This document shows positions 23,291-46,615 of a stretch of 64,000 nucleotides of DNA, piece after piece. A program made the translations under genes and the position numbers. The notes under the pieces are model-generated. The model made no database searches and was not told the origin of the DNA. It worked only from the letters and a program-made list of their open reading frames with translations. Numbering within the stretch: the first letter of the stretch is position 1; each line of letters begins with the position of its first letter. The DNA comes from Schmidtea nova (lineage: Eukaryota), in NCBI GenBank assembly GCA_044892505.1, contig CM097884.1:135284001-135348000 (forward strand). Reading direction: 5' to 3'.

Positions 23291-23439
23291 TTGATGCAGC
23301 CGAGAAAGAATGATTGTCTTAGATATAGAAATATATGTATTGGAGTGCGACGGTCTTGTTTTGTTTTGAGTGCATGAGAACAACCTAAGGATAAGGTAGA
23401 GTTGTGTAATGACGATAGGATGACCGAAAGATCAGACAC

Positions 23440-24039
23440 ATGACATATACTGCCATTAATGATATATTTACAGACATGACGGAAACCAAGGGCAGAGATT
23501 TCAAGCAAGAGGCGCGAGAACACAAGGCGCGCTCACGAGTCCTGGAGAGTCGATTAAGGCAGCTGAATGAGGAGCATCAGCGGGTTAAAACGACATGGTT
23601 TAGCCCAGAGCGGGTTAAGTCCATCCTGCAGGCTAGATACAGGGCGGAACGAGTAGCTGAGGAACATGCCAGAGAGATTGCAGCCCTGAAGCTGGAGTTG
23701 GCGAATTATTTGAAGGTGTCGACTCGAGACTTCATCACCGAACAATTGCGCCCCGTGATCCGAGCGAGCACCTTTAATCGATGGATAGATACGATAGCGG
23801 TAACTACGAGTACCCAAACAGAAACCGATACCATCGCAACCACGACGATCGAATCAACAACGAAAACTCCAGCCGGTTCAAAACGAACGAAGAGGAGGAA
23901 TCGCTTAGGAGCGAAAAAGCGCAGGGAAAGACGCGCATATGCAGATCGCGTAGGAATAGAGGTAGACTTGCTCAGTGGTCTATCTGAGCAAGAACTACTA
24001 AATGTAATTCGACCCTCTGTATTGGTGAACTATAAATAA
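23440..24039 (+). CDS. LTR-encoded ORF2 (199 aa; coiled coil, TQT motif, Arg-rich basic patch); start may be Met13 at 23476
   Basis: Intact in both LTRs; homologs at 18283 and 10572; AATAAA at the stop. Confidence 0.8.
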   Translation: MTYTAINDIFTDMTETKGRDFKQEAREHKARSRVLESRLRQLNEEHQRVKTTWFSPERVKSILQARYRAERVAEEHAREIAALKLELANYLKVSTRDFITEQLRPVIRASTFNRWIDTIAVTTSTQTETDTIATTTIESTTKTPAGSKRTKRRNRLGAKKRRERRAYADRVGIEVDLLSGLSEQELLNVIRPSVLVNYK

Positions 24040-24429
24040 ATGTATATAAATGAATGACTTGATTTACCTTGTTTGTTTGATGCATGTATAAGAAGTAAAA
24101 GTAACAAAAACCCTGGTTCATTTAAATTGCAGATATCTAAAAAGTAAATTACCCTAGAGCAAAGTAAGGAGCATAAGTGGGACCGAAAGAAAGCCACAGA
24201 CACCTTCTATCGGTAGTGGTGGACCCGTGAATAAACAAGGGAATAGTAGCCGAAAGGTTGCTCACCTGCCTTGTCATTTCACAACGTTGACACAGCACCA
24301 ACATGATGAGTAGTTAGGGATACATCATGGGTGTCAGCGGGGGAATGTTTTTATGTTGGCGAGATCACCCTAACATATAAAATCATAATGATCTCAGTTG
24401 TCAATCTAACCAACACACCAGCATAAATT

Positions 24430-24448
24430 TGGGGGCTCAGTCGGGATT
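24430..24448 (+). other. Primer-binding site, tRNA-Pro-like
   Basis: TGGGGGCTCAGTCGGGATT begins after a 6-nt spacer from the LTR end; canonical Pro PBS is TGGGGGCTCGTCCGGGAT. Confidence 0.75.
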
Positions 24449-24981: not shown

Positions 24982-25440
24982 ATGGAGAACAAAATAAAAG
25001 AAATGCAAACGTTTTTCGAGACAAATAACGAGACAATGGAGATAATAATGAGAAAGTTAAGACGACTCGAGGTAGGAGGATATCACAAACCGACAAACAA
25101 CACAGAAAGAGCTGAAACAATGATGAGCATAAGCGAGAATAAGATAACAGTGGATACAGCAACACGATATCAGTGGTATAGAGAGCGCTTAAACAACCCT
25201 GAAATGAATATCGAGTGCCACAGGCTAGAACAACAGATTGCAACAAAACACGATGAGTGGAAAAGAACGACAACCGAATATACGAGACAGTATCTGACGT
25301 GTTACATCTGTGAAATAAACAAAATACAGATAATGTTGTTGCCGTGTGGGCATTTTCGATTCTGTAATGACTGTAAAATAAATGAACGATGTCCTATGTG
25401 CAACCTTCCCGTATCCGAGAAAATAACAGTGTACTTGTAA
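24982..25440 (+). CDS. IAP-type C3HC4 RING finger protein without BIR (152 aa)
   Basis: C-terminal CYICEINKIQIMLLPCGHFRFCNDC...CPMC...KITVYL; AATAAA just after the stop. Confidence 0.8.
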   Translation: MENKIKEMQTFFETNNETMEIIMRKLRRLEVGGYHKPTNNTERAETMMSISENKITVDTATRYQWYRERLNNPEMNIECHRLEQQIATKHDEWKRTTTEYTRQYLTCYICEINKIQIMLLPCGHFRFCNDCKINERCPMCNLPVSEKITVYL

Positions 25441-27528: not shown

Positions 27529-28405
27529 CCAACGAGAGACGTCAGTTGAATTAAAGGTGAGTAGAGATGAGAATTGAAATGAAGTAGTAAACGTAGTGCG
27601 AATAGGAGATGAAGCGAATAGTTGGGAAATAGAGTAGTTGACAGATAAGGGGAGATTTGAACTCAGAGCCAGAGAAGCCTGAGAAAAGTAAAGGGGATAA
27701 TAAGAGCGCTGAGCGACAAAGTAATCGGGAAACTGGGGAAAAAGTAATTGGTGTATTTGATAAAGAATAGATAATTGATGCGACTGCATAGATAATTTAA
27801 ATAGACTTAAAATCAAGGGAAATGGGAAAAATGGGGATCTTCATGAATTATGACTACACCCGTGAGAGGGACGAGAAACACGATAACGGGGACGTATCGT
27901 GTAAGTGATTATTTGTTTTAAGGAAACAAATCAATCAAGCAATTCAAAGCAATCTAGCAGTCAGAGCAGTCAAAGGAAACAAAACGAAGAAGAAGCAAAG
28001 CAAAAGCGGAGTAGAAAATCAGTTGAGAATATAAGAAGTTGAGGAATAGACAAAATTGAGGGACGAGAAACAAGATCAGGTATAATACCAATCTTAACGG
28101 AAGCAGAAAGAAAAGCAGCAAAAAGGACAAGAACAGGTAACAAGCCTAAGCAGCAAAAGAACAAACAAGTAGAGATCAGCGATAATTCGAGTAATAAAGA
28201 GAACCAAGAAGAAACCCCAGAAGATCTAGAAGTACAAAACGAAGTAGAGACGATAGACAGTGAACTAGTCAGAGAAAACAGAACAAGAAGCGAATCAAGA
28301 GATAACGAAACAGAGAGTAGCAAAGAAGAAGAGTCGAATTCAGAAACAAGTGGTGAACTAGAAGTAAAGAAAACTAGTACAGTATTCCAAGATAGTGGAA
28401 TCGGG

Positions 28406-29551
28406 ATGAGTGATCACAGAGAGGATCTAAGAGAAAAATTCAAGGGCGAACCATTTAATGGAGACGCCAGTAGATTGGACACGTTTCTGAAGGAATTTGG
28501 CATATTCGTGGATATATGCGGATGGAGTGCAGAAACGTTAGCGAATCGAATCCCGCTATACTTGAAAGATAGCGCATTGGATCTGTATATTGAAAAGAGA
28601 TCTGGAAGTAATCCACCCAGAACGTGGGAAGCGATCAAGGAGTTCTTCCAACAGACGTTTGGGATAAACAAAGTGCTGAATGAAGCATTCGATGAGTTCT
28701 CAGCAAGAAAACAAAGGAGAAATGAGTCAAATGCGGTGTACGCAAGCGAATTAAGAAAGTTGGCGAAACTGGCATTCAACAGAGGAAGCCCAGTAGACGA
28801 AGAATTGATGACAGCGTTATTCGTACGAGGTCTCAGGAGACCTGACATCAGAGCACAAGTGGGATGCAAGGGATGTAAAACAGTAGATGAAGCGTTGGAA
28901 GCAGCCAACCTATTCGAATTGCATATGGCAATGAATGACATGAGAATTACGGCGGTAATGGGAAAAACGACAGAAGATGAAGAACAAGGAAAAAGAAACA
29001 TGAATCAGAGTATTCCCCATTCACAGAGATTGTTCAAAGAACCGCCAGCGAGGAAGAATAACGGATATATCACGGTGAACACGAATGGAGGAAATAGTTA
29101 CAATGACAGGCAGAATAGGCAATGTCAGACGTGTGGGAAAAACGGACATTGGCAACAAGAGTGTTTCCAGAATGTAGCCTGTAAACTGTGTGGACAAAAA
29201 GGTCACTCAGAAAATCGATGTTATGGGAAAACGTGTTACACATGTGGAAAAACCGGACACATGTCAAGAGACTGTAATCAACAGAGAAGTTGGTCAAACA
29301 GTGGAAATAGACCGAATTACGGGAATCGACCAAGCTATGGGAATCAAGGTCAACAACGGAACAACCCAAACAGCAGTGCAAACGAAGCTAGTATGAAAGA
29401 AGCTAAGTTGAGACAGGAGGTATCCAGATTACACGAGATAATCGAAAGCATGGCAAAGGGAAGCCAACAAGCTGCTCAACCAAAGATAAACATGATCCAG
29501 TTAATAGAAGCTGAGGCCGAAAGAGAAAACAGAGAGTCAACAGAAACATAA
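28406..29551 (+). CDS. gag: Gag (retrotransposon capsid domain plus three CCHC zinc knuckles)
   Basis: FNGD...LKDSAL..Y...W..IK..F..TFG capsid pattern; CQTCGKNGHWQQEC, CKLCGQKGHSENRC, CYTCGKTGHMSRDC. Confidence 0.93.
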   Translation: MSDHREDLREKFKGEPFNGDASRLDTFLKEFGIFVDICGWSAETLANRIPLYLKDSALDLYIEKRSGSNPPRTWEAIKEFFQQTFGINKVLNEAFDEFSARKQRRNESNAVYASELRKLAKLAFNRGSPVDEELMTALFVRGLRRPDIRAQVGCKGCKTVDEALEAANLFELHMAMNDMRITAVMGKTTEDEEQGKRNMNQSIPHSQRLFKEPPARKNNGYITVNTNGGNSYNDRQNRQCQTCGKNGHWQQECFQNVACKLCGQKGHSENRCYGKTCYTCGKTGHMSRDCNQQRSWSNSGNRPNYGNRPSYGNQGQQRNNPNSSANEASMKEAKLRQEVSRLHEIIESMAKGSQQAAQPKINMIQLIEAEAERENRESTET

Positions 29552-29639: not shown

Positions 29640-32600
29640 ATGATGCGAGCAATGATGGAAGAGAAGCAGCAGGATGAGTCAGACGAGTTAGAAGTTAAAG
29701 AGAAAAGAAACGAAGAGCAGAAACAAGAAGAAGTGAGTCAGGAAGTAGAAACTACAGAGCAGAATCAAAAAGTGGAAGAAGTAGAAAAAGAAACAGAAAC
29801 AGAAAAAGAAACAGGAAAAGAAACGAATCAAGAAGAGGGAGTGAGAATCAAACAAAGAGGAATGTTGGTGATCATGCCGAATGATCACGTATTTCGATTC
29901 AAATACGATGTAAAAGAAGAAGTAGGAAGATTGTTCAATAAAGTAAATGAGATGATTCCGGGAGTGACGAAACTGCCCAGAGAAGCATTCCTACAAACAG
30001 AGGATCTACCAGAAGTGAAGTTAAAGATGACTGATATATGGGAAGATATGGGAGTAACGGAGACGAAAATAAACGTGATGATCATCAGAGAGGTGGAACC
30101 GGAGAAAATCCCACCACCAGTGAAACATCAAACTCGGATCAGTCGAATATTCAAAGGAAAAATAAGACGAAGACGGTTGGAAGAAATAGAGGAGTTGGAG
30201 AAAAGAATGGGAAAAGCTGAAATAACGGGAAACGAGAATGAACTAATACAGGAAGTTAGCAAAAACGAAGCGAGACCAACCGCGCATATTGGGATGCTGA
30301 GACACCCAAGACAAGAGTTGTCAGATGAAGAAGATGACAGCGAAGTTAGCAGTCTGGCAGGAGACATGCTAAAGGAACCGGAAAACGAGGATAAAAAGAT
30401 GGAAGTAGTCGAGACGATAGAAATGATGTCAGTAAAGGAAGAGGAAATTCAGAAGCTGATGGATAACGCGTTGGAAGTAATCCATAACGAGGAGTTTATC
30501 GACGGGAAACGATATAGAAAGTTTATACGAGCAGTATGGCAGATGAAGTATAAAGAGTGGTTACAAGAAAGAGAAGTGAGGGTAATACAAGAATTCATAG
30601 AGAAGTTATTGAAAGAACCACTGAACGAATACGTAATACAAATATGGATAAACGAGTGTTCACCGAGAATCTGGATAAGGAACCCAATGACGGATGGAAT
30701 ATATCGATGGGTTGAGGACAGATTGGGAAGCTCGTACAAAGACAAGTTCATATACTCAGGAAACGGATTGGTGAGAAAAGGAACGCATATGATAGACACA
30801 GGCATATGGCCAGGAGAAATAACGACGTTATCAATATGCAACACCAAAAAGGAAGAGAACTTACAAGGAATCGTCAAAGAAGCGAATACGTGTTACGAGA
30901 TGAGAATAAAACCTCAGTTGGTAGAGGCAAAAGAAAGAATCTTGGCGGAGAATTTGAATACGATGATAGAACAGATCATCCAACAAATCAAGAAACATCG
31001 AAAGGAATTGACGAAAAACGAGTATGAGAATTTGAAACAGTGTATCGAGAACATACGAGATACAAGTCAAACGAGACATTCAAATTTCAAAACAGACAAG
31101 CTAATTGCAAAGATGGGAAAAGAAATGTTTAAAAGAGGAGAGGTATCAGACCTGAAGATTACCGTGAGATTGCCGAACGAGGAGACAAGACAAATTGAAG
31201 TAATACCAGATAGTAAAGTGGGAGAAATAGTAGAGGTCATCAATGAGACGATATTACAACGAGAACGAGAAGACGAATTCGAAGATGACATTGCGATAAA
31301 ATACAAAGAACATCTACTGAACGAACGTGACGAAAGACGAGCGTATAAAATCGGCATATGGGACAATTTCCAGACAATACACGTCATCAGAATGGATGAT
31401 GTGCCAAGAGCAACACCAAGAGATGAGGAAAGGAAAAAGAAACGACAAGAGGACGTTATGCGCAAGTTGAGGCAGATAGTAGAAATCTATCGGAACTGGC
31501 AGATGAAGCCAGAATGGGAGACAATATTGGGGGAATTGGATCTTAACCGACGACGATTGACGCCAGTAGAGAAGCAATGGGATAACAAAGAGAAACGTTG
31601 GAAAGTGAAAAGAGGCGTATATGAAGAAGATCCGGAGGGAGAAGACAGATACGAAACGAATACAAAACGGATATGTATGGTAACAAGGAGAATATTACCA
31701 ACGGACTTAGACGGACCAGAAACTGCAGTAATATGGGCAGAATTGGAGAAACAGAAAACGAGTGAATTGATCGAGCTGTTGAGAGGAAATACTCGGGGAA
31801 AAAGACAAACAAAAAAAGGCTTAGCACAATTCATAATCTCAAATGGAGAAGACATAACGAACTTGAGAAAAGTAGCTAAAGCGATAGCAGAATACAAGAG
31901 AGTTAACGAGTGGTGTCCAGAGCAACTAGACGAGGTAATAAAAAAGTGGAGAAACAAAGAGTTTACGGAGGAAACGCCACAGAAAATACATTTGAGGATA
32001 ATGTATCCGAATCAGAGAAAAGAAGAGTTTTGGGTGATGCTAACAGAAAAAGTGAAGAGTGTTAAAGAGAAGCTGATGTATGAACTACCATTCCACCTGC
32101 AACATCAAGGACGATCGTTGGATAACAATTTGGAAATCTGGCTGACACCAGTACAATTGGATCTAATGAATACGCTAACAGTGGCACAGATAGTGGGTCA
32201 ACCACTGAAGTTTAAAGAGGAAAAGAAAGCGAAAGGAAGCATGAGTACACCAAGTCCGATGAAGTCAACAACGACCCCAGGAACAAGTTCGGGACAAGCA
32301 AGGACAACACCAATCAAAACGAGAGAAAGAACACCGCCAGAAGCGTATGACGTCGATGAGATACTAACAGACAGTGACGAAGCGATAGAAGAATTAACGA
32401 AACTGACTCAAAAACCAACGGCGAACATTTTTGACAGAATAATAGAGATGCCAATAACGTCACCAGCAGAAATCGACGATCAAGGAGTGGAACAGGAGGT
32501 AGTCATAGAAATGGTAAACGATTCGGAAGACGAACAAGAACAACCACAGTTTACTCAAGAAATGGAAAGATGGTTAGAACAGCGAGCGAACGAAGGAAGA

Positions 32601-35600
32601 GATGTTACAGAAGAAACCGGAAGAGCAGCGAGATTTGTAGAAACCGGAACTGGAATGGAAAAACGACCAAGAGGGAGACCAAAGATAGATCTAGCAACAA
32701 CAATTCCAAAGACAAGAGAAGAAAGGAGACAAGAGCAATGGGAGATTTGCTTGAAGAAACTAGACAAAATCGCAGAAATCAGAGGAAAAGAGGAGAATCA
32801 AGTTTGTCAAGGAGAAGAATGGCTCACCAAAACGATAATGGATGTACTAGCAATAATTGACCCAGACTTAAAGAATTTGTGGCGAATAAACGAACCTAGT
32901 ACAAAGGCAAAAATGCTACACAATGCAATAGCACCGATTATGCCAGAATTGATAAAGGCAAAAACAAAATCGAATCATCTAGATTGGCAAGGAACCACGA
33001 TGTTGATAAAAGGGCTACTTAACGGAGCAGAGACGGATAGCAAATATCTAGTAGCAATCTCGTATACGATATACAATTTGTTAACGCTAAGCCGAGGGAG
33101 TCCGAAGTCAAGTCCGATGGGAAGACATATTAAAAATACGGCGATGATTATCGAGAAAGAAATTGAACCATATATCCTCAGAAAAGGAGGATGGGAGAAG
33201 TTCATAAAAGAGAACCAGACGAAAGAAGGCTCTAACGTGATGAGAAAGAAACTCGAAGGAGTATTGAGAGAAATGGAGAATAGACAAACGATGCAAGGAA
33301 ACGGAAGATCGACGTTGAATCTAAACTCGATAATCATGATGATGCTAGTATGGTTGTTAAGCACAGAAGGTGTAACAACGTTCGAAGTATTTGATTGTGA
33401 TCAAATGAAGTTAGGAGAAAAGTACTCATTGAGAGGTACGGAGCAATGCAAAGATGCAACTCCAGTAGAGTTAAAAGAGATTAAAAAAGAACAATGGTAC
33501 CACGTGTATCAAGAGGCAGAACTAATAAAGACAATGGTGAATGAATGCAAGGTACAGAAGACGAGATTCGCATTCTATTGTGGGAGAGGACATTATTCAG
33601 CAATTGTCATGCCAGGAACAGAAAGAGAACCAATCGTATTGCAAGGGGAAGACTGCGAAGCATTATTTAAACATGGAGAAGTAACAACGAGAGATAAAAT
33701 CAAGATAAAAGGAAAACCAGGAATGATGTTACAGCAGACATATTACGTAGCAGGACGAATTACGGGAGGAGAAGGATATTGTCAAGGAGAAACCTACCCA
33801 ATATTTGGAGTACCTGCAACCAACTTAGTGGTAATGGATACGTACATAGTCGAACTGAAAAGTTACGAAGCATTCTTCGAACCAACAACAGGAGAAATGA
33901 AAACGTTATCCATGTGTAAAATTGACAGGAGTATGTGTCAAACGGGAATGTCAACTTTGGTGTACAAACCGAAAGTGAACGAATGTCAATTACAACTGCT
34001 ACAAGGAGCAAAGTTCGACGAAATTCAAGGAAAAACGTTCCAAGAGGAGGACGATGACGACAAAGCTAGAGCAAAACATCTCAAAGAAGCTTTAGAAAAT
34101 AAAAGACAACTGAAATCAGAGCAGAGAGAGAAACGGATAGAGATGAGAACCACACCAACAGTGTTGATAACCACAAATCAGGATGTGGGCATGAGATTCA
34201 TAAAAGGGAAAGCAACCCTTAAGTGCAGTACAACAGTATACGAAACAAACTATCCAGGAATATATGTGTCAAAGCAAGAAGTACCGAATGCGAAACCCAA
34301 GATCGACACAATGGATATCAAGCTACACTTGTATGTGAATAATAAAATGGATTTCTTATTCCATAGAGGACAAGCCTCATTGCAAAAAGTGTACTATGAT
34401 CTGATAAACAACGATTGTATACTGAATCGAGAAATATTGAAGACAAAGTTGGCCGTAGCGATTACGAATCCAGATAGCGCGATGCCATTATTACCACTGA
34501 GAGAAGGACATTTCGGAAGAGTGGTCGGAGAAGCAATGTACGTATACATTTGCGAAAAGACACACGCATCGCTAGCAGCAACAACGCAGTTGAAACCTGG
34601 ACAATGTACAAACGAACTAGAAATCGATTATAAAGGAAAAGTACGATATGTTCAACCGGTGACGAGAATCATCAATCCACCAGGGTTTGAACCAAATCCA
34701 TTCAACTGTAGTAATGCGTACGGACCGCTTTATCAGAAGCCAGATGGCAAATGGGTTATGTTCCCAGGAAGAACCGAAGTATTAGCACCAAGAGAATTTG
34801 AACTGATGCAGTTGTCAAAAGATAGACAGTTCAGTGACGTAGATGTCTCAAACAACGGAATCTATAGTCCAAAGGATCTAGAAGCAGCAAGGCAGAATAT
34901 ACTATTTCCGGCAAGAAGAGAAGCATTACTGTCAAATATCGTAACGATAACGGGAGGAACGAATTATCGAGAAGGACCGAATTACGAACTGCTGTTGTCA
35001 CCGGCACATTTCAAGAAAGCCACAGAAAATATGATGAAGGCAATGTGGGGAAGATTCCTGATATTTGGACAAATGATGGCTGGAATACTGGGGGTTATAC
35101 TGATAATACAAATCGTCAGAGTGATAATAACGCAAATGTTAGCGTGTTTCGATATCTACAAGAGAGAAAAGAAAGTGAATTGGAAAATGGTAGTAGGGTT
35201 TTTACCATTCCTTGCGAAAACGATGGTGTTACACGGACACTCAAAAGACATACATCGAATAAAGAGGTTGTTGAAGATACTTGCAAAAATGAGAGGAACA
35301 AATGAAGATGTCGGAAGGAAATTCAAAAAGATAATGCAAGATGAACAAGCAAGACGACAACTGAAGAAGGAAAGGAAAGGATTATGGGAAAGAGTGAAGG
35401 GATATCGAACACAAGATGATTCAAGCAACGACGACGATGACGATGACGATCAAGGAGGACAAGCGAATATAAACCAGATTCCACAGTATAACGAAAAGAG
35501 TGCAGTTGAGAATTGGAGATACAGTGCTCCACCTCAGTCAATGTATAACGAACCGATATACAAAGCGAAGCCGAATATGATGCAGATGATGCCGATGACA

Positions 35601-38600
35601 AGTATATACCCGATAATTCCAGAAGACTGCAAAGTAAAACGAGGCGGAAGCGTAAACTCGTTAGAAGACACGCATACGATAGCGGTTATGTCCACAAATA
35701 TGGGACCGATTTTAACAACAACTGTAGAAATAAACGGAAGAGAAATTGAAGCTATGATCGATACAGGCGCGAATATTTCGGCGATCGACATTAATCATAT
35801 ACCAGAGAAAAATCAAGGAGAAATCGAGAAGACGAATGTTCATGTAATCGCGTGCAGTCAAGAGACAGTAGAAGTAGCCGGAAGATGGTTTGTAAAAATT
35901 AAGCATCGAGGTGCAGAAATCAACACGTACATCGCTGTAATACCATCGCTGAGTGTACCATGTATTATTGGAACTGACCTGATGCCAGACCTGTTCAAGG
36001 AAATCGTAATTGATCTAGGAGCAATGAAGCTGAAAGATAGAACAGGAAAAATCTGCAGAATGAAAGTTAAAGTGGCAAGTGCAGGACAAATAGTAGTGCC
36101 AGCGAGGCACGAAATGATGTGCTATGTCAAGATCGATTCGACAATAAAGGGAGACATGATATTCGAACCAAGTAAGAAGTTCGAAGCGAAGAAGGAATTA
36201 CAAATGGCAAGAGAATTGGTCACGATAAACCAAGAAGGAGAAATACCGATTAATCTGGTAAACTTCGACGAAGAGGACAAGATAATATACGAGAATGAGA
36301 ATTTGGGTAAATTAACACCCATGTCCGAAATCGAAATACCAGATAAGAATGAGAAAAGCAAAGACGAGTTACCATGGAAAATCGACAGTGTGTTGTTAGA
36401 CGAACGACAAAAAGAACAGTTACAGAAACTGTTGATGGAATATAAAGATATATTCGCAGCATCAGATTTAGATCTGGGAACATGTGATGTAACATTACAC
36501 ACGATACCGTTGACGGACGAAACGCCAATCGTATTACGACCATACAAACTGGCAGAAGCTCAAAAAGCAGTGGCAGAAGAAGAGGTACAAAAGATGTTAG
36601 ATGCAGAGGTCATCGAACCTAGTTGCTCACCCTGGCAATTCCCGGTGGTGATGGTGAAAAAGAAGGATGGAACTCAAAGATTCTGTATCGATTACAGACG
36701 ATTAAATGCCGTTACGAAAAGAGATACGTACCCACTGCCAGACATAAATGAAATGTTGTTGACGTTACAAGGAGCAGCCTATTTCACGTCACTGGATTTA
36801 AAGAGCGGATATTGGCAGATCAAAATGAAAGACGAGGATAAAGAGAAGACAGCATTTACAATCGGACGAGATCTGTACCAATTCAAGAAAATGCCGTTTG
36901 GGTTAACAAACGCGCCAGCATCATTCCAGAGATGCATGAATTTCGTAACACATGGCATAAAACAATGCATGGTGTATATCGACGATCTATTGATCTACTC
37001 CGCAACATTCGAAGACCACTTGCAAGACATCAGAAATGTGTTCGTGAAATTAAGGCAATGGAAGCTGAAATTGAAGCCGTCAAAGTGCGATTGGGCAAAA
37101 GATAAAGTGACATTCTTAGGTCACATTGTATCAGCAAAAGGAAAAGAACCAGATCCAAGAAATATCGAGAAAGTTAAAGAATGTCCACCACCCAAGACAG
37201 TAACTCAAATACAAGAATTTTTGGGATTGTGTGGATATTATCGAAAGTTTATCAAGGACTATGCAGGAATATCAAAGCCAATGCAAGAATTAGTAAGACA
37301 AGACGTGTCGTTTGTGTGGGGAGCAGAACAGCAAGCAGCATTTGAGACATTACGAGACAAGCTGATTACAGCGCCAATATTAGTCCATCCAGATTTTAAG
37401 AAGCCATTTCTGTTGGCAACAGACGCAAGTGGATACGCAGCAGGAGCAGTACTAGGCCAATTCGATGAAGAAGGCAAAGAGAGAGTAATTGGGTACTACA
37501 GTCGAACATTCAGGAAACATGAAAAGAATTACTCAGTCACGGAAAGAGAAGCCTATGCGATAATATTGGCAATCAAGCATTTCAAATACCTGTTGTGGGG
37601 TCATGAAATATATATCACGACGGATCATCAACCATTGGTATGGTTAGGTCAACATAAAGAATCATCAAGTAGATTGATGCGTTGGGCGATGCAGTTGCAA
37701 GAATACTCGCCATTCATAAAGTTTAAAGCAGGAAAAGCAAACGCAAACGCGGATTGCATGTCAAGGTTTACATTTCCGGAATTGGTGAACCTAAATGCTC
37801 TAAAAATATGTGCATTAATAGCGGAGGATCTGGATTTCAGCGAATTAAGGAAAGATCAACTCGAAGATGAGGAGTTGGGATTGATCAGCAAGTATCTGAA
37901 AGAAAGGGAAATGGAGATATTCGGCAAGAACCAAACGTTACGCGAACATATGCAGAAATATCAGCACCGATATGTGATGGAAAAAGGATGGTTATTGATA
38001 CAAGATGGAGAACGAAGATTAATGTGCTTACCTGCGAATAGGCGAAAGGAAATCATGACTCAATATCATGACGGAAAATTAGGCGGACATATGTCAGCGA
38101 AAAAGACAATCGGGAGATTGAGACAAAAGTATTTTTGGCCAACCATGGAAGATGATGTGAAAGAATGGATAAAGAACTGCTTAACCTGTGCGACAAGAAA
38201 GAACGTCGGAACAAAGTGGAAAACACCACTAAAACCAATGCCAATACCTGCAGAACCGATGGCAACGATAGCAATGGACGTAGTTGGACCATTGCCGGAA
38301 AGCTTAAAGGGGAATCAGTATATCTTAGTAGTTACGGACTATCTAACAAAGTTCCCAGAAGCATTCGCAATACCAGATCAAAAAGCAAAAACAGTCGCGA
38401 GAATATTGGTAGAAGAGATATGCTGCAGATACGGAACACCCAAGAAAATCCTAACGGACCAAGGAACGAACTTCATGAGTGAAATATTAGACGAAGTCAC
38501 GAATTACTTCCGAATTGCGAAATTACGAACATCCCCATACCATCCGCAAACGAACGGTCAAACAGAAAGGTTCAATGGAACATTGATACGCATGTTGTCA

Positions 38601-41600
38601 AATTACGTCAGTAAACATCAGACTGACTGGGACGAGTATATCAACTTGTGTTTAATGGCATATAGAATGTCAATACATGCGGCAACAAAGCTAAGTCCAT
38701 TTCAACTGATGTACGGAAGAGACTGCAACTTACCGATCGATTTAGAATACCAACCACCATTATCACAGTACATGGAGGTTGACGATTACGTGACGAAGTT
38801 CAAAGAAAGAATGCAAGAGATCTGGAAAACGGCGGAACTAAACATCAAGTTCTATCAAGAGAGTTACAAGGATCTGCATGACCAGAAAAAGAATGTGAAA
38901 GCACATGATTTAAAAGTTGGAGATTGGGTGATAATCGAAACACCAGAGATAATACCCGGTACGGTCAAGAAACTCCAACGACCAGGCAAAGGGCCATACG
39001 AAATAACAACAGTAAATGAAAACAATGTGCGAGTACGATTGGTGAACAATCCATTGGTAAGACCAATATACGTGAATGCATGTCGATGCAGGAAAATACC
39101 AAAGACAGCAACTCTATCACCAGAGAAACGGGTGATGACAAGATCACAGACGGCGAGAATTAGTATGTTACGAGTACAACAAAAGCCGCAAACAAGTCTA
39201 GAAGACAACCGAAGAGAAGTAATAGACATCAAAGAACTGGCAAAGAGGACCAGAGAAATTATACCAGAATGGAAATGGTGGTTCGATTTCAATATATTGA
39301 CAGAAGTTCGAAAGAATGTAATGGACTATGCTAAGGATAGAACAGCACATCCAATAACAAGGACGCTGCTAGAGGAGATCCCTCAGACATTGAATCTACA
39401 AGACAAAGATGGTAATACCGCGTTACATAATGCAATCAAGCACAGTGGAAACGAAAAAGTGAAAGAGATCGTGGAAATGATACTCGAAGGTGGAGGAGAA
39501 ATTGACAAAGTGAATTGGGAAGGAATCACTCCACTGATGATGATGACGATTCACGGAAGAAACGATGAAATAATCAAGCTATTCGGAAACACCAGATCGA
39601 ATTGGATGACAAAAGATAAAGAAGGGCGAACTTTCTTGAATCATGCAATTGATAGAGCAAATCACCGAATACTGAAGTATATCACGGAGAATGCCACGTG
39701 GGAAATCGACGAACTAACTAGAGGATCGATCATGAAACAAGCAATCGGGGTAAAGAACAGTAAAACCTGGAGGATATTGCTAAAATGGAAACGACCAGAA
39801 GGAGATTCGTGGATCATGGATTGTAATGAAGTGTTCATAAAGGGAGAAAATGCGCTACTGAAACATCTATTAGAAGTAACATACGATCCAAAAACACTTG
39901 CAGTGTTGATAGCGAGAGATACGCTACGGGTTAGTGAAAACCCAAGAGAATACAAGTTGGAAGACAGAAAGAAGGAACTATTCGGATTAATCAAGAAATG
40001 GTGCGATAAGCAATGGAATCCGGATATGAGCTTCGAACATTTCTATGACATCCAAAAGCAGCACAAAGAAATAAGCAAACGATATAAAGAGCTGGTGGAA
40101 GCATTGAAGTATGGACAATTCTTCAGACAAGCAGTGTATCAAGACCAACGAATGAAACAGATGCAAACGCGAATAAGAAGCAAAGCAGTGTTGTTCAATG
40201 CAAAAGCTGATTATCAAGAGAGATTAGACGCAATCGTAGCAAAAGCACAGGAGAAATTATCGGAATTCAAGGAGAATAAAAAATCGCTAGAAATACTAGG
40301 AGCAATTACAGAGAAAGTGCACAGATATGCACAAGGAGACTCTAACGAGAGTGACATGGAAACGATCAAAAATCAAATGCCTGTAGCATTCCTATTATCG
40401 AAGAATGGGAGATTGCCGATACATTGGGCATTACGTCGAAAGAAAGAAAACGAAGTGCTAGAAATAACGAAAGCAATGGTCAAGTGCGAAGCAGACATGA
40501 ATACGGTTGATGGTAATGGAGATACAATCATGATAATCGCAGCAAGGAAGAAGACGAAGTTGAAAGTGCTAAATGAATTATACGAAGCAGGAGCAAAAAT
40601 CGAAGGGAAAAATGGAAAGAATAATTCCATCATAGATATCGCAATACAGTGGAACAATTTCGAGATGATCAAGTTCATAAAGTCCATCAAGAGACAAGAG
40701 GACATAGAATACCTGGCAAATAACGTAAAGAATTTCAGTTTGACAGTAATGATACACGACATAGAGAAAACAAGAGCATTAATAACATGGGTGAATCCGA
40801 TCACCAAGGAACCGGCTTTCAAGATCAATGACCATATGGAACAGAATCAGAATTGGTGTATCAGAAGCGCGTTATTAAGACACAAAAAGCCAGAGATAGT
40901 AGAAGAATTCTTAAAGAGAAGAGATTTGAAGTTCACGAACAATCCAAAGGAACCCGAACGAACGGGAAGATGGAAAAACTTGTTCAGAAAATATGTGAAT
41001 GAATGGACAAATGCCAAAGGAGCAATCAAGCAAAGTAGACTAGAAGACAGGGAACCATCCAAGGAGATGGAAATACGTGAATTCGAGTCTAGCACACTCG
41101 CGGTTCAAACGTATGAAAGATTGATTGAAGAAATTAATGTCGAGGACGACATTTCGAAAGGACCAGGGGGTGGTTACAGAGATTTCGACGACAAAAGCAA
41201 CAACGAAGAGAACAACGAAGACAATGACAACAAAAGAACAGAGGATAATGAAAAAGAAAGACAAGAAGAACCGAAACCAACGAGAAACGACAAGAAAGGG
41301 GAAGCCGAAGAACGAGAAAACAGTGGAACAAAAGACGAACATGCGAACTATGGAAAACGAACAGGAAGTCTACTTTTGAGACCAGAAATGTTGTGTATTG
41401 CGATATTGATAACAATCATCGGACAAGGAGAAGCCAAGAAACAATACGTCACGCTAGAGATAATCAGAGGAAAGGAAGTATACGAAAGAATATGCTGGAA
41501 AGAAAACCTGAAGAAAAACGATACGCTGAAGTGTATATTGTCAGATCTAAAGCGAGACGTCATCCAAATCAAAGGATTGGAGAAAGAAAAGTCATACATA

Positions 41601-43313
41601 ATATGCGCAATAAAGCAGAGAGGAGAACCAAAAGCACCTCAGGTAACTGCATGTCAATTATATAAAGCAACAGAAGCGCTGAAAATACAGAAATGGATTG
41701 AGAAAAGAAGCGAAGAGACAACGAGAAGAACAGAAGTGGAATTGGAGAAAGGGAAGAATCAATCTGAAGCAGAAGAAGGAATCGGAAACCGAACGGAGAA
41801 AGAAAGAATAACCAAAAATTCAGCGGGAAAATTAACATTCCAACCGGAATTGATATGTGTAGCATTAATATTAATCCTCATTAAGAGAATCATGGAGGAC
41901 ATAGATATTAGCGTAATGACGTTAGTAAATATCCAAGACCAACGAACAACGAACGGAAGATGTTGGGGACGAAACAATGAGGTAATTGGAATCAGCGAAA
42001 CAAGAGAAAGTCGAGAGACAGAGACAAATGAGGAAATCGAGATAACCGAAATGGAAACAGAGAAAACATGTGAACTATGCCTCATGGAAAAAGCAGCAAA
42101 CGGAAACAGACCAGGAACAAGCGAGTGTAAAGTGTTCCAAGCAAAGGAGATAATTGAGTTCCCAAAAAGAAAGAAACAAGATCAAGAAACGATTGCGAAT
42201 GAAGTAGTAACAGTGGAGATAAAAAACATTGGTCGGAGAACAATTGGGATGTGTTGGAGAAAATACATCGGAGTACCGACCAACAACATAATACCGCAAT
42301 GCAGAACGAGAGAACGAGGAATCCCGTTTCAACTAAATGGATTCGAAGTCGGACAAACCTACGAAATTTGCGTAATTCGAAGAATAAGAGAAATAATACT
42401 AAGAAGCCTGGAGTGCAAACTGTACAAGACGCCAGAGCAAATTAACGGAACAAGAACGATCGAAATGGGAGGAAGTCGACAGAGGAAAAGAAAGTCAAGA
42501 AGAACCACGACAACAAACAGTCAAGGAGTTCAACAGGCAACAACGGAAAGAACGACAATAGAAAACGAACCGGAATCAACAACGCTGATAATATGGAAGA
42601 TCCATAAAAAGGTCCTAGAAATCTGTTGGACACTAATGCCGAACAGTATGGGAAAGTCCCCACGAAACTGTCAAAAGACATCAAATGATAAAGGAGAAAT
42701 AATCGAGGTAGAAATGAGGAAGTTGAAAACAAACGCAGAGTACGAAGTGTGTGCAATCGAAGAAGTAGATGCACAAGGAAATCCACAAGAAAGGTGCGAA
42801 ACCTATTACACGCCAAGGAACACGACGATAAAGAGGAGAATCAAAAAGTTAGAATTCCGAGAATTGAGTCAGAAGAGAGAACAAAACGAGAAGGAAGAAA
42901 CAATACCAAATCAACAAGAAAGATGGGAACCAGAGAAAGTGATTGAAGAAGTTAGACGGAGACAACAACAATATGAACAATGGGAAGCAGAATGGAAAGG
43001 TCAATATGGCGTGATGATAAACCAAAGTGAGACTCCAAGAATGAGCATTGGAAAAACAGTAATGGGATTAATCAGCATGGGAGTATTCATAGCGTGTATA
43101 CCGCTGATAACGATCATGATAGTATGTTGGAGATATGGCATGAGAAATAAGACCATAGCAGTAAAATGGCCGGACGTAAAGGTCACGAACTACAACATAA
43201 AACTACCAAAAGAAGTACGAGAAGAGCTGAAAAGACGATCGAAACACGAAGAGATGTGGGTACAGATCGAAGACGAGGAACTGTACGAAGGAAAACCAGT
43301 GATAGTCGTATAG
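29640..43313 (+). CDS. pol: 4,557-aa polyprotein: accessory domains, glycoprotein, PR, RT, RNase H, IN, ankyrins, FN3-like membrane domain
   Basis: Uninterrupted 13.7-kb ORF (frame open from 29508); DTGA 35760, YIDD 36975, TDAS RNase H, HHCC plus DDE integrase, GPY motif. Confidence 0.96.
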   Translation: MMRAMMEEKQQDESDELEVKEKRNEEQKQEEVSQEVETTEQNQKVEEVEKETETEKETGKETNQEEGVRIKQRGMLVIMPNDHVFRFKYDVKEEVGRLFNKVNEMIPGVTKLPREAFLQTEDLPEVKLKMTDIWEDMGVTETKINVMIIREVEPEKIPPPVKHQTRISRIFKGKIRRRRLEEIEELEKRMGKAEITGNENELIQEVSKNEARPTAHIGMLRHPRQELSDEEDDSEVSSLAGDMLKEPENEDKKMEVVETIEMMSVKEEEIQKLMDNALEVIHNEEFIDGKRYRKFIRAVWQMKYKEWLQEREVRVIQEFIEKLLKEPLNEYVIQIWINECSPRIWIRNPMTDGIYRWVEDRLGSSYKDKFIYSGNGLVRKGTHMIDTGIWPGEITTLSICNTKKEENLQGIVKEANTCYEMRIKPQLVEAKERILAENLNTMIEQIIQQIKKHRKELTKNEYENLKQCIENIRDTSQTRHSNFKTDKLIAKMGKEMFKRGEVSDLKITVRLPNEETRQIEVIPDSKVGEIVEVINETILQREREDEFEDDIAIKYKEHLLNERDERRAYKIGIWDNFQTIHVIRMDDVPRATPRDEERKKKRQEDVMRKLRQIVEIYRNWQMKPEWETILGELDLNRRRLTPVEKQWDNKEKRWKVKRGVYEEDPEGEDRYETNTKRICMVTRRILPTDLDGPETAVIWAELEKQKTSELIELLRGNTRGKRQTKKGLAQFIISNGEDITNLRKVAKAIAEYKRVNEWCPEQLDEVIKKWRNKEFTEETPQKIHLRIMYPNQRKEEFWVMLTEKVKSVKEKLMYELPFHLQHQGRSLDNNLEIWLTPVQLDLMNTLTVAQIVGQPLKFKEEKKAKGSMSTPSPMKSTTTPGTSSGQARTTPIKTRERTPPEAYDVDEILTDSDEAIEELTKLTQKPTANIFDRIIEMPITSPAEIDDQGVEQEVVIEMVNDSEDEQEQPQFTQEMERWLEQRANEGRDVTEETGRAARFVETGTGMEKRPRGRPKIDLATTIPKTREERRQEQWEICLKKLDKIAEIRGKEENQVCQGEEWLTKTIMDVLAIIDPDLKNLWRINEPSTKAKMLHNAIAPIMPELIKAKTKSNHLDWQGTTMLIKGLLNGAETDSKYLVAISYTIYNLLTLSRGSPKSSPMGRHIKNTAMIIEKEIEPYILRKGGWEKFIKENQTKEGSNVMRKKLEGVLREMENRQTMQGNGRSTLNLNSIIMMMLVWLLSTEGVTTFEVFDCDQMKLGEKYSLRGTEQCKDATPVELKEIKKEQWYHVYQEAELIKTMVNECKVQKTRFAFYCGRGHYSAIVMPGTEREPIVLQGEDCEALFKHGEVTTRDKIKIKGKPGMMLQQTYYVAGRITGGEGYCQGETYPIFGVPATNLVVMDTYIVELKSYEAFFEPTTGEMKTLSMCKIDRSMCQTGMSTLVYKPKVNECQLQLLQGAKFDEIQGKTFQEEDDDDKARAKHLKEALENKRQLKSEQREKRIEMRTTPTVLITTNQDVGMRFIKGKATLKCSTTVYETNYPGIYVSKQEVPNAKPKIDTMDIKLHLYVNNKMDFLFHRGQASLQKVYYDLINNDCILNREILKTKLAVAITNPDSAMPLLPLREGHFGRVVGEAMYVYICEKTHASLAATTQLKPGQCTNELEIDYKGKVRYVQPVTRIINPPGFEPNPFNCSNAYGPLYQKPDGKWVMFPGRTEVLAPREFELMQLSKDRQFSDVDVSNNGIYSPKDLEAARQNILFPARREALLSNIVTITGGTNYREGPNYELLLSPAHFKKATENMMKAMWGRFLIFGQMMAGILGVILIIQIVRVIITQMLACFDIYKREKKVNWKMVVGFLPFLAKTMVLHGHSKDIHRIKRLLKILAKMRGTNEDVGRKFKKIMQDEQARRQLKKERKGLWERVKGYRTQDDSSNDDDDDDDQGGQANINQIPQYNEKSAVENWRYSAPPQSMYNEPIYKAKPNMMQMMPMTSIYPIIPEDCKVKRGGSVNSLEDTHTIAVMSTNMGPILTTTVEINGREIEAMIDTGANISAIDINHIPEKNQGEIEKTNVHVIACSQETVEVAGRWFVKIKHRGAEINTYIAVIPSLSVPCIIGTDLMPDLFKEIVIDLGAMKLKDRTGKICRMKVKVASAGQIVVPARHEMMCYVKIDSTIKGDMIFEPSKKFEAKKELQMARELVTINQEGEIPINLVNFDEEDKIIYENENLGKLTPMSEIEIPDKNEKSKDELPWKIDSVLLDERQKEQLQKLLMEYKDIFAASDLDLGTCDVTLHTIPLTDETPIVLRPYKLAEAQKAVAEEEVQKMLDAEVIEPSCSPWQFPVVMVKKKDGTQRFCIDYRRLNAVTKRDTYPLPDINEMLLTLQGAAYFTSLDLKSGYWQIKMKDEDKEKTAFTIGRDLYQFKKMPFGLTNAPASFQRCMNFVTHGIKQCMVYIDDLLIYSATFEDHLQDIRNVFVKLRQWKLKLKPSKCDWAKDKVTFLGHIVSAKGKEPDPRNIEKVKECPPPKTVTQIQEFLGLCGYYRKFIKDYAGISKPMQELVRQDVSFVWGAEQQAAFETLRDKLITAPILVHPDFKKPFLLATDASGYAAGAVLGQFDEEGKERVIGYYSRTFRKHEKNYSVTEREAYAIILAIKHFKYLLWGHEIYITTDHQPLVWLGQHKESSSRLMRWAMQLQEYSPFIKFKAGKANANADCMSRFTFPELVNLNALKICALIAEDLDFSELRKDQLEDEELGLISKYLKEREMEIFGKNQTLREHMQKYQHRYVMEKGWLLIQDGERRLMCLPANRRKEIMTQYHDGKLGGHMSAKKTIGRLRQKYFWPTMEDDVKEWIKNCLTCATRKNVGTKWKTPLKPMPIPAEPMATIAMDVVGPLPESLKGNQYILVVTDYLTKFPEAFAIPDQKAKTVARILVEEICCRYGTPKKILTDQGTNFMSEILDEVTNYFRIAKLRTSPYHPQTNGQTERFNGTLIRMLSNYVSKHQTDWDEYINLCLMAYRMSIHAATKLSPFQLMYGRDCNLPIDLEYQPPLSQYMEVDDYVTKFKERMQEIWKTAELNIKFYQESYKDLHDQKKNVKAHDLKVGDWVIIETPEIIPGTVKKLQRPGKGPYEITTVNENNVRVRLVNNPLVRPIYVNACRCRKIPKTATLSPEKRVMTRSQTARISMLRVQQKPQTSLEDNRREVIDIKELAKRTREIIPEWKWWFDFNILTEVRKNVMDYAKDRTAHPITRTLLEEIPQTLNLQDKDGNTALHNAIKHSGNEKVKEIVEMILEGGGEIDKVNWEGITPLMMMTIHGRNDEIIKLFGNTRSNWMTKDKEGRTFLNHAIDRANHRILKYITENATWEIDELTRGSIMKQAIGVKNSKTWRILLKWKRPEGDSWIMDCNEVFIKGENALLKHLLEVTYDPKTLAVLIARDTLRVSENPREYKLEDRKKELFGLIKKWCDKQWNPDMSFEHFYDIQKQHKEISKRYKELVEALKYGQFFRQAVYQDQRMKQMQTRIRSKAVLFNAKADYQERLDAIVAKAQEKLSEFKENKKSLEILGAITEKVHRYAQGDSNESDMETIKNQMPVAFLLSKNGRLPIHWALRRKKENEVLEITKAMVKCEADMNTVDGNGDTIMIIAARKKTKLKVLNELYEAGAKIEGKNGKNNSIIDIAIQWNNFEMIKFIKSIKRQEDIEYLANNVKNFSLTVMIHDIEKTRALITWVNPITKEPAFKINDHMEQNQNWCIRSALLRHKKPEIVEEFLKRRDLKFTNNPKEPERTGRWKNLFRKYVNEWTNAKGAIKQSRLEDREPSKEMEIREFESSTLAVQTYERLIEEINVEDDISKGPGGGYRDFDDKSNNEENNEDNDNKRTEDNEKERQEEPKPTRNDKKGEAEERENSGTKDEHANYGKRTGSLLLRPEMLCIAILITIIGQGEAKKQYVTLEIIRGKEVYERICWKENLKKNDTLKCILSDLKRDVIQIKGLEKEKSYIICAIKQRGEPKAPQVTACQLYKATEALKIQKWIEKRSEETTRRTEVELEKGKNQSEAEEGIGNRTEKERITKNSAGKLTFQPELICVALILILIKRIMEDIDISVMTLVNIQDQRTTNGRCWGRNNEVIGISETRESRETETNEEIEITEMETEKTCELCLMEKAANGNRPGTSECKVFQAKEIIEFPKRKKQDQETIANEVVTVEIKNIGRRTIGMCWRKYIGVPTNNIIPQCRTRERGIPFQLNGFEVGQTYEICVIRRIREIILRSLECKLYKTPEQINGTRTIEMGGSRQRKRKSRRTTTTNSQGVQQATTERTTIENEPESTTLIIWKIHKKVLEICWTLMPNSMGKSPRNCQKTSNDKGEIIEVEMRKLKTNAEYEVCAIEEVDAQGNPQERCETYYTPRNTTIKRRIKKLEFRELSQKREQNEKEETIPNQQERWEPEKVIEEVRRRQQQYEQWEAEWKGQYGVMINQSETPRMSIGKTVMGLISMGVFIACIPLITIMIVCWRYGMRNKTIAVKWPDVKVTNYNIKLPKEVREELKRRSKHEEMWVQIEDEELYEGKPVIVV
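32738..33215 (+). other. Bcl-2-like domain within the polyprotein
   Basis: IEKEIEPYILRKGGWEKFI resembles BH2 (Bcl-xL LNDHLEPWIQENGGWDTFV); weaker BH3-like LKKLDKIAE and BH1-like ELI...LDWQGT in the expected order. Confidence 0.55.
33321..35250 (+). other. Chuvirus-like fusion glycoprotein domain
   Basis: Signal-like SIIMMMLVWLLSTEG; FDC...YSL...EQC, ECKV...R...YCG..H, YVNNK, NDCILNR, FGRVVGEAMYVYIC Cys pattern; C-terminal TM GILGVILIIQIVRVII. Confidence 0.8.
35700..36030 (+). other. Aspartic protease domain
   Basis: INGREIEAMIDTGANISAI ... CIIGTDLM. Confidence 0.9.
36550..37790 (+). other. Ty3/Gypsy-type reverse transcriptase plus RNase H
   Basis: SPW..PVVMVKKKDG..RFCIDYRRLN, LDLKSGYWQI, MPFGLTNAPASFQR, YIDD; LATDAS...ERE...TDHQPL...NADCMSR. 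Confidence 0.95.
38040..39080 (+). other. Integrase
   Basis: YHDGKLGGH...CLTC; AMDVVG, TDQGTNF, TERFNGTL; C-terminal GPY module. Confidence 0.95.
39390..40690 (+). other. Two ankyrin-repeat clusters (~39390-39700 and ~40400-40690)
   Basis: NLQDKDGNTALHNAI, NWEGITPLM, KDKEGRTFLNHAI; KNGRLPIHWAL, ADMNTVDGNGDTIMIIA, GAKIEGKNGKNNSIIDIA. Confidence 0.8.
41382..43313 (+). other. C-terminal membrane module: hydrophobic leader(s), four FN3-like Cys-containing repeats, TM, short tail
   Basis: Four repeats of [xCW ... I/L..L....Y.(I/V)C ... C..(Y/F)]; TM GLISMGVFIACIPLITIMIVCW at ~43060-43135. Confidence 0.55.
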
Positions 43314-43786: not shown

Positions 43787-43876
43787 TGAATAAGCGGAAA
43801 ATTGTGTAAATACGTGTAAATAAAGAACCAGAAAAAATCAAAAATATGGGGCAATTGATGTAAATATTGTTGTAGA

Positions 43877-45289: not shown

Positions 45290-45381
45290 TCAGAAGGAAC
45301 GACCCTGTAAATAAAGTGTAAAAAAAATCGACAACAACAATAAACGTATAGTATAACAAGTGTAAATTTGTAAATTACAGA

Positions 45382-46542: not shown

Positions 46543-46615
46543 AAAGAGGCGAAAAATCCGTGTGTAAAAATGTACAAATCGATGTAACAGGTATTAATCA
46601 GTAGAATAATCAGAA

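What the first reader, a model, noticed from the sequence alone, without database searches (positions are those of the whole stretch)
33321..35250. Chuvirus-type glycoprotein embedded in the pol ORF upstream of the protease
Seen: internal signal-like segment, a chuvirus-G-like Cys pattern and a TM helix, all in frame between an accessory region and DTG. Known: env in retroviruses and errantiviruses lies 3' of IN as a separate ORF; chuviral glycoproteins have been reported captured by BEL/Pao elements in mosquitoes. Inference: an independent env capture by a Gypsy element at an unusual position, co-translated with Pol.
Basis: partly seen in the sequence, partly recalled or inferred. Interest (0 to 1): 0.9.

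Follow-up and report, generated by a model that had tools for sequence, protein, structure and literature searches.

The report
Envelope gene inside giant flatworm retrotransposon
A giant jumping gene of the kind known from planarian flatworms carries a virus-type membrane-fusion protein in the middle of one huge protein; the arrangement is real and strongly conserved but already described, and whether it makes infectious particles is still open.

Summary
33,321-35,250 encodes a signal-like segment, a 14-cysteine ectodomain and a membrane helix, in frame before the protease of a 29.5-kb Ty3/gypsy element (3,283-bp LTRs, one mismatch). It matches Pfam PF24664 (E 3e-74); its AlphaFold model matches herpesvirus gB and chu-like virus G, so it is a class III fusogen. 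The layout is that of planarian Burro elements, where env between BCL2 and protease was published in 2019; gB-type GAG-ENV-POL elements of flatworms were published in 2026. It is not a fresh capture: env follows RT across nine relatives. Added here: env is under purifying selection as strong as RT (dN/dS about 0.02 among copies); the internal signal is kept in 14 of 14 long homologues; this copy has a private frameshift after gag, whereas gag-env-pol is one frame in 17 of 20 sister copies; and a second signal-plus-membrane module with fibronectin-III-like repeats ends the polyprotein. Best model: one membrane-threaded polyprotein yielding enveloped particles. No RNA or particle evidence was obtained.

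The parts
21141..24423 (+). 5' LTR, 3,283 bp, TG...CA; holds two ORFs (22,655-23,290; 23,440-24,039) without Pfam match
   Evidence: self-BLAST, one mismatch to the 3' LTR; 4-bp target-site duplication AGAT on both flanks; ORFs
24430..24447 (+). primer-binding site complementary to tRNA-Pro(TGG)
   Evidence: sequence after the LTR; host tRNA 3' ends found by pattern and called tRNA-Pro; one G-U type difference
24982..25440 (+). accessory ORF, 152 aa, C-terminal RING finger
   Evidence: PF13920 E 5e-9
28043..29551 (+). Gag (capsid domain, three CCHC knuckles); cut off from the long frame in this copy by a private frameshift near 29.53 kb
   Evidence: PF03732 E 1.6e-5, PF00098 E 3.7e-11; 40 of 40 other copies differ in frame there
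31137..31406 (+). ubiquitin/SUMO-like domain (lead only)
   Evidence: ESM Atlas rows at 0.87-0.88 with PF11976/PF00240; no such Pfam hit
32790..33203 (+). Bcl-2-like domain ending in a BH2-type GGW motif
   Evidence: profile of three elements hits Bax and Bcl-xL, best E 0.002; PF00452 in 2 of 3 members, not in the window's own
33321..33377 (+). internal signal-like segment; signal-peptidase site predicted just after it
   Evidence: hydropathy; kept in 21 of 21 copies and at the same distance from the first xDC motif in 14 of 14 long homologues and in stand-alone G proteins; cleavage is inferred
33381..35069 (+). class III (gB/chuvirus-G-type) fusogen ectodomain, 14 Cys, one N-glycan sequon, one furin-type site (34,125-34,136) in a poorly ordered loop
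   Evidence: PF24664; model pLDDT 88.8; fold matches; sequon; furin motif; dN/dS 0.019-0.022
35073..35129 (+). membrane anchor of the glycoprotein (stop-transfer helix)
   Evidence: hydropathy; conserved in copies
35718..38546 (+). protease (35,718-35,990), RT (36,654-37,130), RNase H (37,392-37,706), integrase (38,031-38,546)
   Evidence: Pfam PF00077, PF00078, PF17917, PF17921, PF00665
39381..40682 (+). ankyrin repeats
   Evidence: PF12796 E 2.3e-19
41355..43124 (+). second membrane module at the end of the polyprotein: two signal-like segments (41,364; 41,826), four related 80-residue beta units (FN3-like, weak), membrane helix (43,068-43,124)
   Evidence: hydropathy; repeat alignment; Atlas rows all FN3 but under 0.9; model pLDDT 61, best Z 5.9 to FN3 domains; no Pfam hit
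43859..45289 (+). accessory ORF, TRAF-like (RING, TRAF zinc finger, MATH)
   Evidence: PF22486 E 2e-26, PF21355 E 7e-25; dN/dS 0.094
45352..47140 (+). two further ORFs: charged coiled-coil-like (45,352-46,542) and a short one with hydrophobic N-terminal and internal segments (46,610-47,140)
   Evidence: only a sub-threshold Pfam hit for the first, none for the second
47342..50624 (+). 3' LTR

Best explanation
This is the envelope gene of a Burro-type giant Ty3/gypsy element, an old family trait. It is translated as part of one gag-env-pol polyprotein of about 5,090 residues that is threaded through the ER membrane. Gag and the accessory domains, with the Bcl-2-like domain last, stay in the cytoplasm; the hydrophobic segment carries the next part into the lumen and is cut there by signal peptidase; the ectodomain folds into a gB-like trimer; the membrane helix returns the chain to the cytoplasm, where protease, RT and integrase follow and are freed by the element's protease. 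The glycoprotein serves as the fusogen of enveloped particles that carry the element between cells. Shown: frame, fold class, conservation, selection, co-divergence with RT. Inferred: topology, cleavage, trimer, particles, cell entry.
For: Fold: top Foldseek PDB rows are all herpesvirus gB, best E 5e-14; top BFVD rows chu-like and related G proteins, best E 6e-37, TM up to 0.71; all 10 chains with Z >= 5 among 48,161 are class III fusogens, best HSV-1 gB Z 9.7, rmsd 7.8, 413 aligned. One frame: gag knuckles, env and DTG lie in one frame in 17 of 20 copies (set enriched by me for long frames); 23 of 69 scored copies have frames of 5,076-5,091 codons and 67 of 69 no stop in env. Signal kept in 14 of 14 long homologues; protease follows env in frame in 10 of 15 long homologues scanned; two more families in this genome share the order. 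Selection: env dN/dS 0.019 (21 copies picked by env) and 0.022 (18 copies picked by 5' non-coding DNA), against RT 0.019, IN 0.013 and linkers 0.08-0.23, at dS about 0.18. Age: env and RT trees share all three 100/100 splits; rho 0.70, 8 of 2,000 permutations as high. Published: PMC6431247, PMC13524379.
Against: No RNA run was listed and no particle, protein or fusion data exist here. TM-scores to gB are only 0.35-0.44. The signal's hydrophobicity is modest (KD19 1.42). A single frame makes Gag, Env and Pol in equal amounts, unlike typical retroviruses, and anchors Gag by its far end, which needs unexplained processing. Pairwise dN/dS values share history and are not independent; low dN/dS shows function, not cell entry. 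3 of 20 copies picked by non-coding DNA lack env and 1 has a stop in it. Sequence search of the PDB found no relative.
Confidence: 0.65

Rival explanations
1. Same gene and function, but Env (with Pol behind it) is mostly made from a spliced or internally started message, so the hydrophobic segment acts as an ordinary N-terminal signal peptide; the single frame is the genomic layout only.
For: The segment holds three methionines and looks like the N-terminal signals of stand-alone G proteins. A splice-donor-like sequence lies near 21,650 in the LTR (read by eye). Summed contig depth over 33.1-35.6 kb is up to 2-3 times that of other bins in 4 of 4 runs, though the tool says depth cannot rank genes and the runs are not on record as RNA.
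Against: No pyrimidine-tract acceptor was found in 32,001-33,400. None of the 15 joints shown has GT..AG ends (17 more not shown). The frame upstream of the signal is kept open and under purifying selection right up to it (dN/dS 0.03-0.04).
Confidence: 0.15
2. The glycoprotein is needed, but not for spread between cells: particles bud into and fuse out of internal membranes of the same cell, or the protein acts as a membrane scaffold that positions Gag and Pol.
For: Purifying selection is equally expected. My search for particles in planarians listed no paper on this. Burro1 RNA is reported as rising in differentiated cells after smedwi-2 knock-down, with no envelope or particle passage found (PMC8532177, passages).
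Against: A complete class III fold with conserved cysteines and a furin-type site is kept; a scaffold would not need it. In Drosophila gypsy, env serves cell-to-cell entry (as summarised in PMC13524379).
Confidence: 0.14
3. A recent, independent capture of a chuvirus glycoprotein by this one element.
For: Best structural matches among viruses are chu-like G proteins; a chuvirus G is among the sequence hits (P0030).
Against: Nearest relatives are other polyprotein-borne envs at 29-47% identity; stand-alone G proteins are at about 18-23%. Sixteen polyprotein-type rows form one side of a 95-support branch, apart from stand-alone and BEL/Pao-borne rows. Env follows RT. Six S. mediterranea elements carry the same env type.
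Confidence: 0.03
4. The env is a dead passenger kept open only because a stop would cut off Pol.
For: An in-frame position alone would remove stops and frameshifts.
Against: It would not remove amino-acid changes: dN is 0.003-0.004 at dS 0.18, four to ten times more constrained than the linkers in the same frame.
Confidence: 0.03

Closest known systems
Burro / GYPSM1 giant Ty3/gypsy elements of planarians (PMC6431247, section 7 read in full)
   Same: About 30 kb with multi-kb LTRs; one polyprotein near 5,000 aa; Gag with three CCHC knuckles, SUMO-like, BCL2-like, env, PR-RT-RH-IN, ankyrins; MATH/TRAF domain; env between BCL2 and protease.
   Different: That paper linked the env to gypsy Env and to baculo-, retro- and paramyxovirus fusion proteins (while noting mononegavirus hits); my model places it in class III. 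Here TRAF is a separate ORF downstream of pol. No BIR or dUTPase match was obtained. The section does not mention a post-integrase membrane module. Orthology to Burro-1 to -4 was not tested.
HSV/gB-type GAG-ENV-POL 'errantiviruses' of Platyhelminthes, Smed_errantivirus_1-6 (PMC13524379; sections 5, 6, 9 first parts, passages, supplement rows)
   Same: Order gag-env-pol; gB-type ectodomain; shared motifs and cysteine spacing with the six printed domain I-II sequences, closest by eye to numbers 5 and 6.
   Different: A different family (similar, not near-identical, by eye; not computed). The main text has no occurrence of Burro, polyprotein, in-frame or splic, so it does not treat topology, and I saw no dN/dS for env in the parts read. 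Equating these six with Burro is my inference.
Chuvirus (Jingchuvirales) glycoprotein and BEL/Pao-borne copies (PMC7642597, search listing only)
   Same: Same Pfam family PF24664 and fold; signal - ectodomain - membrane anchor.
   Different: About 20-25% identity; those are stand-alone ORFs or lie after a BEL/Pao integrase (P0059); separate branch in my tree.
Flavivirus and alphavirus polyproteins (recalled, no call)
   Same: Internal signal and stop-transfer segments thread one polyprotein across the ER membrane; host signal peptidase and a viral protease cut it.
   Different: Those are RNA viruses with class II fusogens; an analogy of mechanism only, with no homology claimed.

Membership tests
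Class III viral fusogen, gB/chuvirus-G type | Sequence membership of PF24664 above the curated cut-off | tested here: met
   250.5 bits vs 27
Class III viral fusogen, gB/chuvirus-G type | Elongated fold with beta fusion domain, PH-like domain and long central helix matching gB | tested here: met
   model (helix 315-362)
Class III viral fusogen, gB/chuvirus-G type | Signal, cysteine-bridged ectodomain, C-terminal membrane anchor | tested here: met
   11 cysteines kept in at least 90% of 115 aligned sequences
Class III viral fusogen, gB/chuvirus-G type | Trimer formation | not tested
Class III viral fusogen, gB/chuvirus-G type | Membrane-fusion activity | not testable with these tools
   needs an assay
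Class I gypsy Env / baculovirus F type | Match to F-type profile or fold | tested here: inconclusive
   no such Pfam family at E <= 1 and none among rows with Z >= 5; absence from a list does not exclude, but class III explains the whole domain
Ty3/gypsy (Metaviridae) | LTRs with TG...CA, target-site duplication, tRNA primer site | tested here: met
Ty3/gypsy (Metaviridae) | Order PR-RT-RH-IN | tested here: met
   no BEL/Pao-type Pfam family matched the window's frame
Ty3/gypsy (Metaviridae) | RT placed among reference gypsy clades | not tested
   no named reference RTs were fetched; one search holds only unnamed relatives
Burro | About 30 kb with multi-kb LTRs, high copy number | tested here: met
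   29,484 bp; 142, 254 and 202 genome matches to gag, env and RT 22-mers
Burro | Single polyprotein near 5,000 aa from Gag (CCHC x3) through integrase | tested here: met
   met for the family; this copy itself is broken after gag
Burro | BCL2-like domain, then env, then protease | tested here: met
   (Bcl-2 match weak: best E 0.002)
Burro | Ankyrin repeats and MATH/TRAF domain | tested here: met
Burro | SUMO-like domain; dUTPase-like domain between PR and RT; BIR | tested here: inconclusive
   SUMO-like: Atlas lead 0.88; PR-RT spacer conserved across families but no Pfam hit; no BIR hit
Burro | Sequence orthology to Burro-1 to -4; planarian host | not testable with these tools
   Burro sequences and Grohme et al. 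2018 not held; host inferred from architecture, AT-rich flanks and env similarity
BEL/Pao with chuvirus glycoprotein | BEL/Pao Pol with the glycoprotein after integrase | tested here: not met
   env lies before the protease; BEL-borne P0059 falls outside the polyprotein group

The most novel reading that the evidence does not exclude
Burro-type elements are currently infectious enveloped retroelements whose whole replication kit is one membrane-threaded polyprotein, flavivirus-fashion: the tail anchor of a captured Bcl-2-like protein doubles as the signal of the class III fusogen, and a second surface protein with fibronectin-III-like repeats at the far end of the same chain supplies attachment, as gH/gL or gD do for herpesvirus gB. 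In an animal built from adult pluripotent stem cells this would let the element move from silenced-leaky somatic cells into stem or germ cells.
Probability: 0.2. Interest if true: 0.72.

Novelty: new member of a known kind. Interest (0 to 1): 0.33.

Why it matters
The gene order and fusogen class are in print, so the finding is not a discovery of kind. It matters as a test case for an open question, namely whether env-carrying retrotransposons outside Drosophila really travel between cells. This family is young in places (LTRs 99.97% alike), present in well over a hundred copies, and its env is as constrained as RT, which is the genomic signature expected if env is needed at each round of spread. 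It also ties the 2019 Burro annotation to the 2026 gB-type class and points to a second membrane protein that I did not find described.

Tried and rejected
Word-indexed homologue search found nothing with the single protein and one hit with the alignment. PDB sequence search gave no relative of env or of the Bcl-2-like region alone. RNA: no RNA holder listed; the four runs laid are contigs of unknown kind from one study, so they say nothing on expression, and none of 15 joints shown is GT..AG. The idea of a programmed frameshift between gag and pol was rejected because 40 of 40 other copies differ from this one there. The idea of many env-only derivatives, prompted by depth, was not supported clearly: env 254, RT 202, gag 142 matches, a spread that sister subfamilies can explain. 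dUTPase-like and BIR domains gave no Pfam hit. No F-type (class I) family or fold appeared. Grohme et al. 2018 and Sacco et al. 2022 are not held; either, or their supplements, may already describe the membrane segments or topology. Earlier scan findings: none. Tree left out 92 of the 150 search hits (short fragments and further stand-alone proteins), is a quick unrooted LG+G4 tree, and holds one named chuvirus G and one BEL-borne copy only. No complex prediction was run.

Full report
Observation. The stretch 33,321-35,250 lies inside a 4,601-codon open frame, 29,508-43,313. It begins with a hydrophobic segment, holds 14 cysteines, one N-glycan sequon and a strong membrane helix at 35,073-35,129, and is followed in frame by DTG at 35,760 and YIDD at 36,975. 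Pfam gives PF24664 (Monjiviricetes fusion glycoprotein) at E 3.2e-74, then protease, RT, RNase H, integrase and ankyrin repeats.

The element. Two 3,283-bp LTRs at 21,141-24,423 and 47,342-50,624 differ at one base, end in TG...CA and are flanked by a 4-bp duplication, so this 29,484-bp insertion is very young. The primer site matches host tRNA-Pro. Accessory ORFs encode a RING protein upstream and a TRAF-like protein downstream. A Bcl-2-like domain precedes the glycoprotein (weak: best E 0.002; Pfam hit in 2 of 3 aligned members) and a SUMO-like domain lies further up (lead). The genome holds 142, 254 and 202 matches to 22-mers from gag, env and RT. The host was not identified by any search; a planarian is inferred from the architecture, the 25-31% GC flanks and the env similarity described below.

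One frame. In the window, gag is in a different frame from the rest. This is a lesion of this copy: 20 of 20 copies picked by env and 20 of 20 picked by 5' non-coding DNA differ from it in frame near 29.53 kb. Gag knuckles, env and protease motif lie in one frame in 17 of the first 20 (a set I enriched for long frames), and 23 of 69 scored copies have frames of 5,076-5,091 codons. So the natural layout is a single gag-env-pol polyprotein.

Fold. An AlphaFold model of the ectodomain from 115 aligned sequences has pLDDT 88.8. Its best PDB matches are herpesvirus gB proteins (E 5e-14; TM only 0.35-0.44), its best viral-model matches are chu-like and related G proteins (E 6e-37; TM up to 0.71), and all 10 chains with Z >= 5 in an independent search of 48,161 chains are class III fusogens. 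A furin-type site lies in a poorly ordered loop. Class III is established; trimer and fusion are not tested.

Conservation and selection. Signal, 14 cysteines and helix are kept in 21 of 21 copies. Among copies picked without regard to env, 17 of 20 carry it, 1 of these with a stop. Pairwise dN/dS for the ectodomain is 0.019 and 0.022 in the two disjoint sets (the window is in both) at dS near 0.18, like RT (0.019) and integrase (0.013) and below linkers (0.08-0.23). The pairs share ancestry, so these are descriptive figures. They exclude a dead passenger: the in-frame position would purge stops but not amino-acid changes. High synonymous spread together with near-identical LTRs suggests many lineages replicating lately (inference).

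Age and origin. A search of 1.84 billion representatives returned 926 relatives. The closest are polyproteins: protease follows env in frame in 10 of 15 long ones scanned, and 14 of 14 examined have a hydrophobic segment 15-25 residues before the first xDC motif, as stand-alone G proteins have at their N-terminus. In a quick unrooted tree of 61 rows, the 16 polyprotein-type rows form one side of a branch (SH-aLRT 95), apart from 43 stand-alone proteins (one named chuvirus G) and a BEL/Pao-borne copy. Across nine elements env and RT trees share all three fully supported splits and identities correlate (rho 0.70; 8 of 2,000 permutations). Two more families in this genome share the order. This is an old family trait; the donor and direction of transfer were not tested.

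What is known. [quoted passage not shown] It cites Sacco et al. 2022 for nematodes (not held). Its main text has no occurrence of Burro, polyprotein, in-frame or splic. PMC8532177 (passages) reports Burro1 RNA in differentiated cells after smedwi-2 knock-down. Searches listed no paper on topology, particles or a fibronectin-like module in Burro; Grohme et al. 2018 was not held and may bear on this.

Mechanism. The simplest reading of the frame is a polyprotein threaded through the ER: cytoplasmic Gag, accessory and Bcl-2-like parts; internal signal, cut by signal peptidase; lumenal ectodomain; stop-transfer helix; cytoplasmic PR-RT-RH-IN-ankyrin; then a second signal-plus-anchor module. That resembles flavivirus and alphavirus polyproteins (recalled analogy). 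The glycoprotein most likely makes particles enveloped and able to enter other cells (confidence 0.65). Rivals: a spliced or internally started env message (0.15; no acceptor-like tract, no GT..AG joint among those shown, but no true RNA data), an intracellular role (0.14), recent capture (0.03), dead passenger (0.03).

The second module. 41,355-43,124 has signal-like segments, four related units and a membrane helix; a similar signal-to-helix layout follows integrase in P0004, P0006, P0151 and L052, but P0013 shows no clear final anchor. The FN3 call is weak: Atlas scores under 0.9 with low recognition, model pLDDT 61, best Z 5.9, rmsd 2.1 over 64 residues, no Pfam hit. Selection is purifying but looser. 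An attachment role is a guess.

Verdict. Real feature, correctly described; a new family of a known kind. Interest 0.33. The boldest open reading, an infectious, two-glycoprotein, membrane-threaded retroelement, has probability about 0.2 and would deserve about 0.72.

Noticed in passing
window 41,355-43,124: Second membrane module at the end of the polyprotein: signal-like segments, four related 80-residue beta units, membrane helix. A signal-like segment plus later membrane helix after integrase is also seen in P0004, P0006, P0151 and L052. Units are under weaker purifying selection (dN/dS 0.08-0.29). FN3 identity is a lead only. A search for Burro with fibronectin listed no paper.
   Followed up: partly
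window 33,186-33,377: The env signal follows the BH2-type motif by about 45 residues, where Bcl-2 proteins carry their tail anchor (recalled); a GGW motif lies 52-82 residues before the first xDC in 4 of 14 long homologues and in L051, so the link is not universal.
   Followed up: partly
window 16,161-19,240: Solo LTR of a related family (70-73% identity to this LTR in parts), TG...CA, with a 4-bp duplication CTTT; holds relatives of both LTR ORFs. A further LTR remnant lies at 6,833-7,031.
   Followed up: partly
window 22,655-24,039 and 48,856-50,240: Each LTR carries two ORFs of about 200 codons with no Pfam match; 46-70% identical relatives in the solo LTR suggest they are real genes.
   Followed up: partly
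L051/L052/L057 and L053/L055/L056: At least two more env-bearing families in this genome with the same order; env about 37% and RT about 52% identical to this one; one has 3,401-codon frames.
   Followed up: yes
P0001, P0002, P0003, P0004, P0008, P0014: Several relatives appear to carry more than one aspartic-protease-like stretch after env, and P0004 and P0151 have another after integrase.
   Followed up: no
P0006 (HBK71150.1): A 2,627-aa env-pol polyprotein is deposited as a hypothetical protein of a Flavobacteriaceae MAG; most likely animal retroelement DNA in a bacterial bin (inference).
   Followed up: no
window 26,184-26,796 and 27,124-27,738: A 19-bp tandem array and a looser 55-bp repeat family in the long 5' leader.
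   Followed up: no
window 61,561-62,639: 28-bp tandem array outside the element.
   Followed up: no
L078 (G000:C1:459.61 Mb): Large tandem array of tRNA-Pro genes at 308-bp spacing; 1,117 genome matches to the pattern.
   Followed up: no
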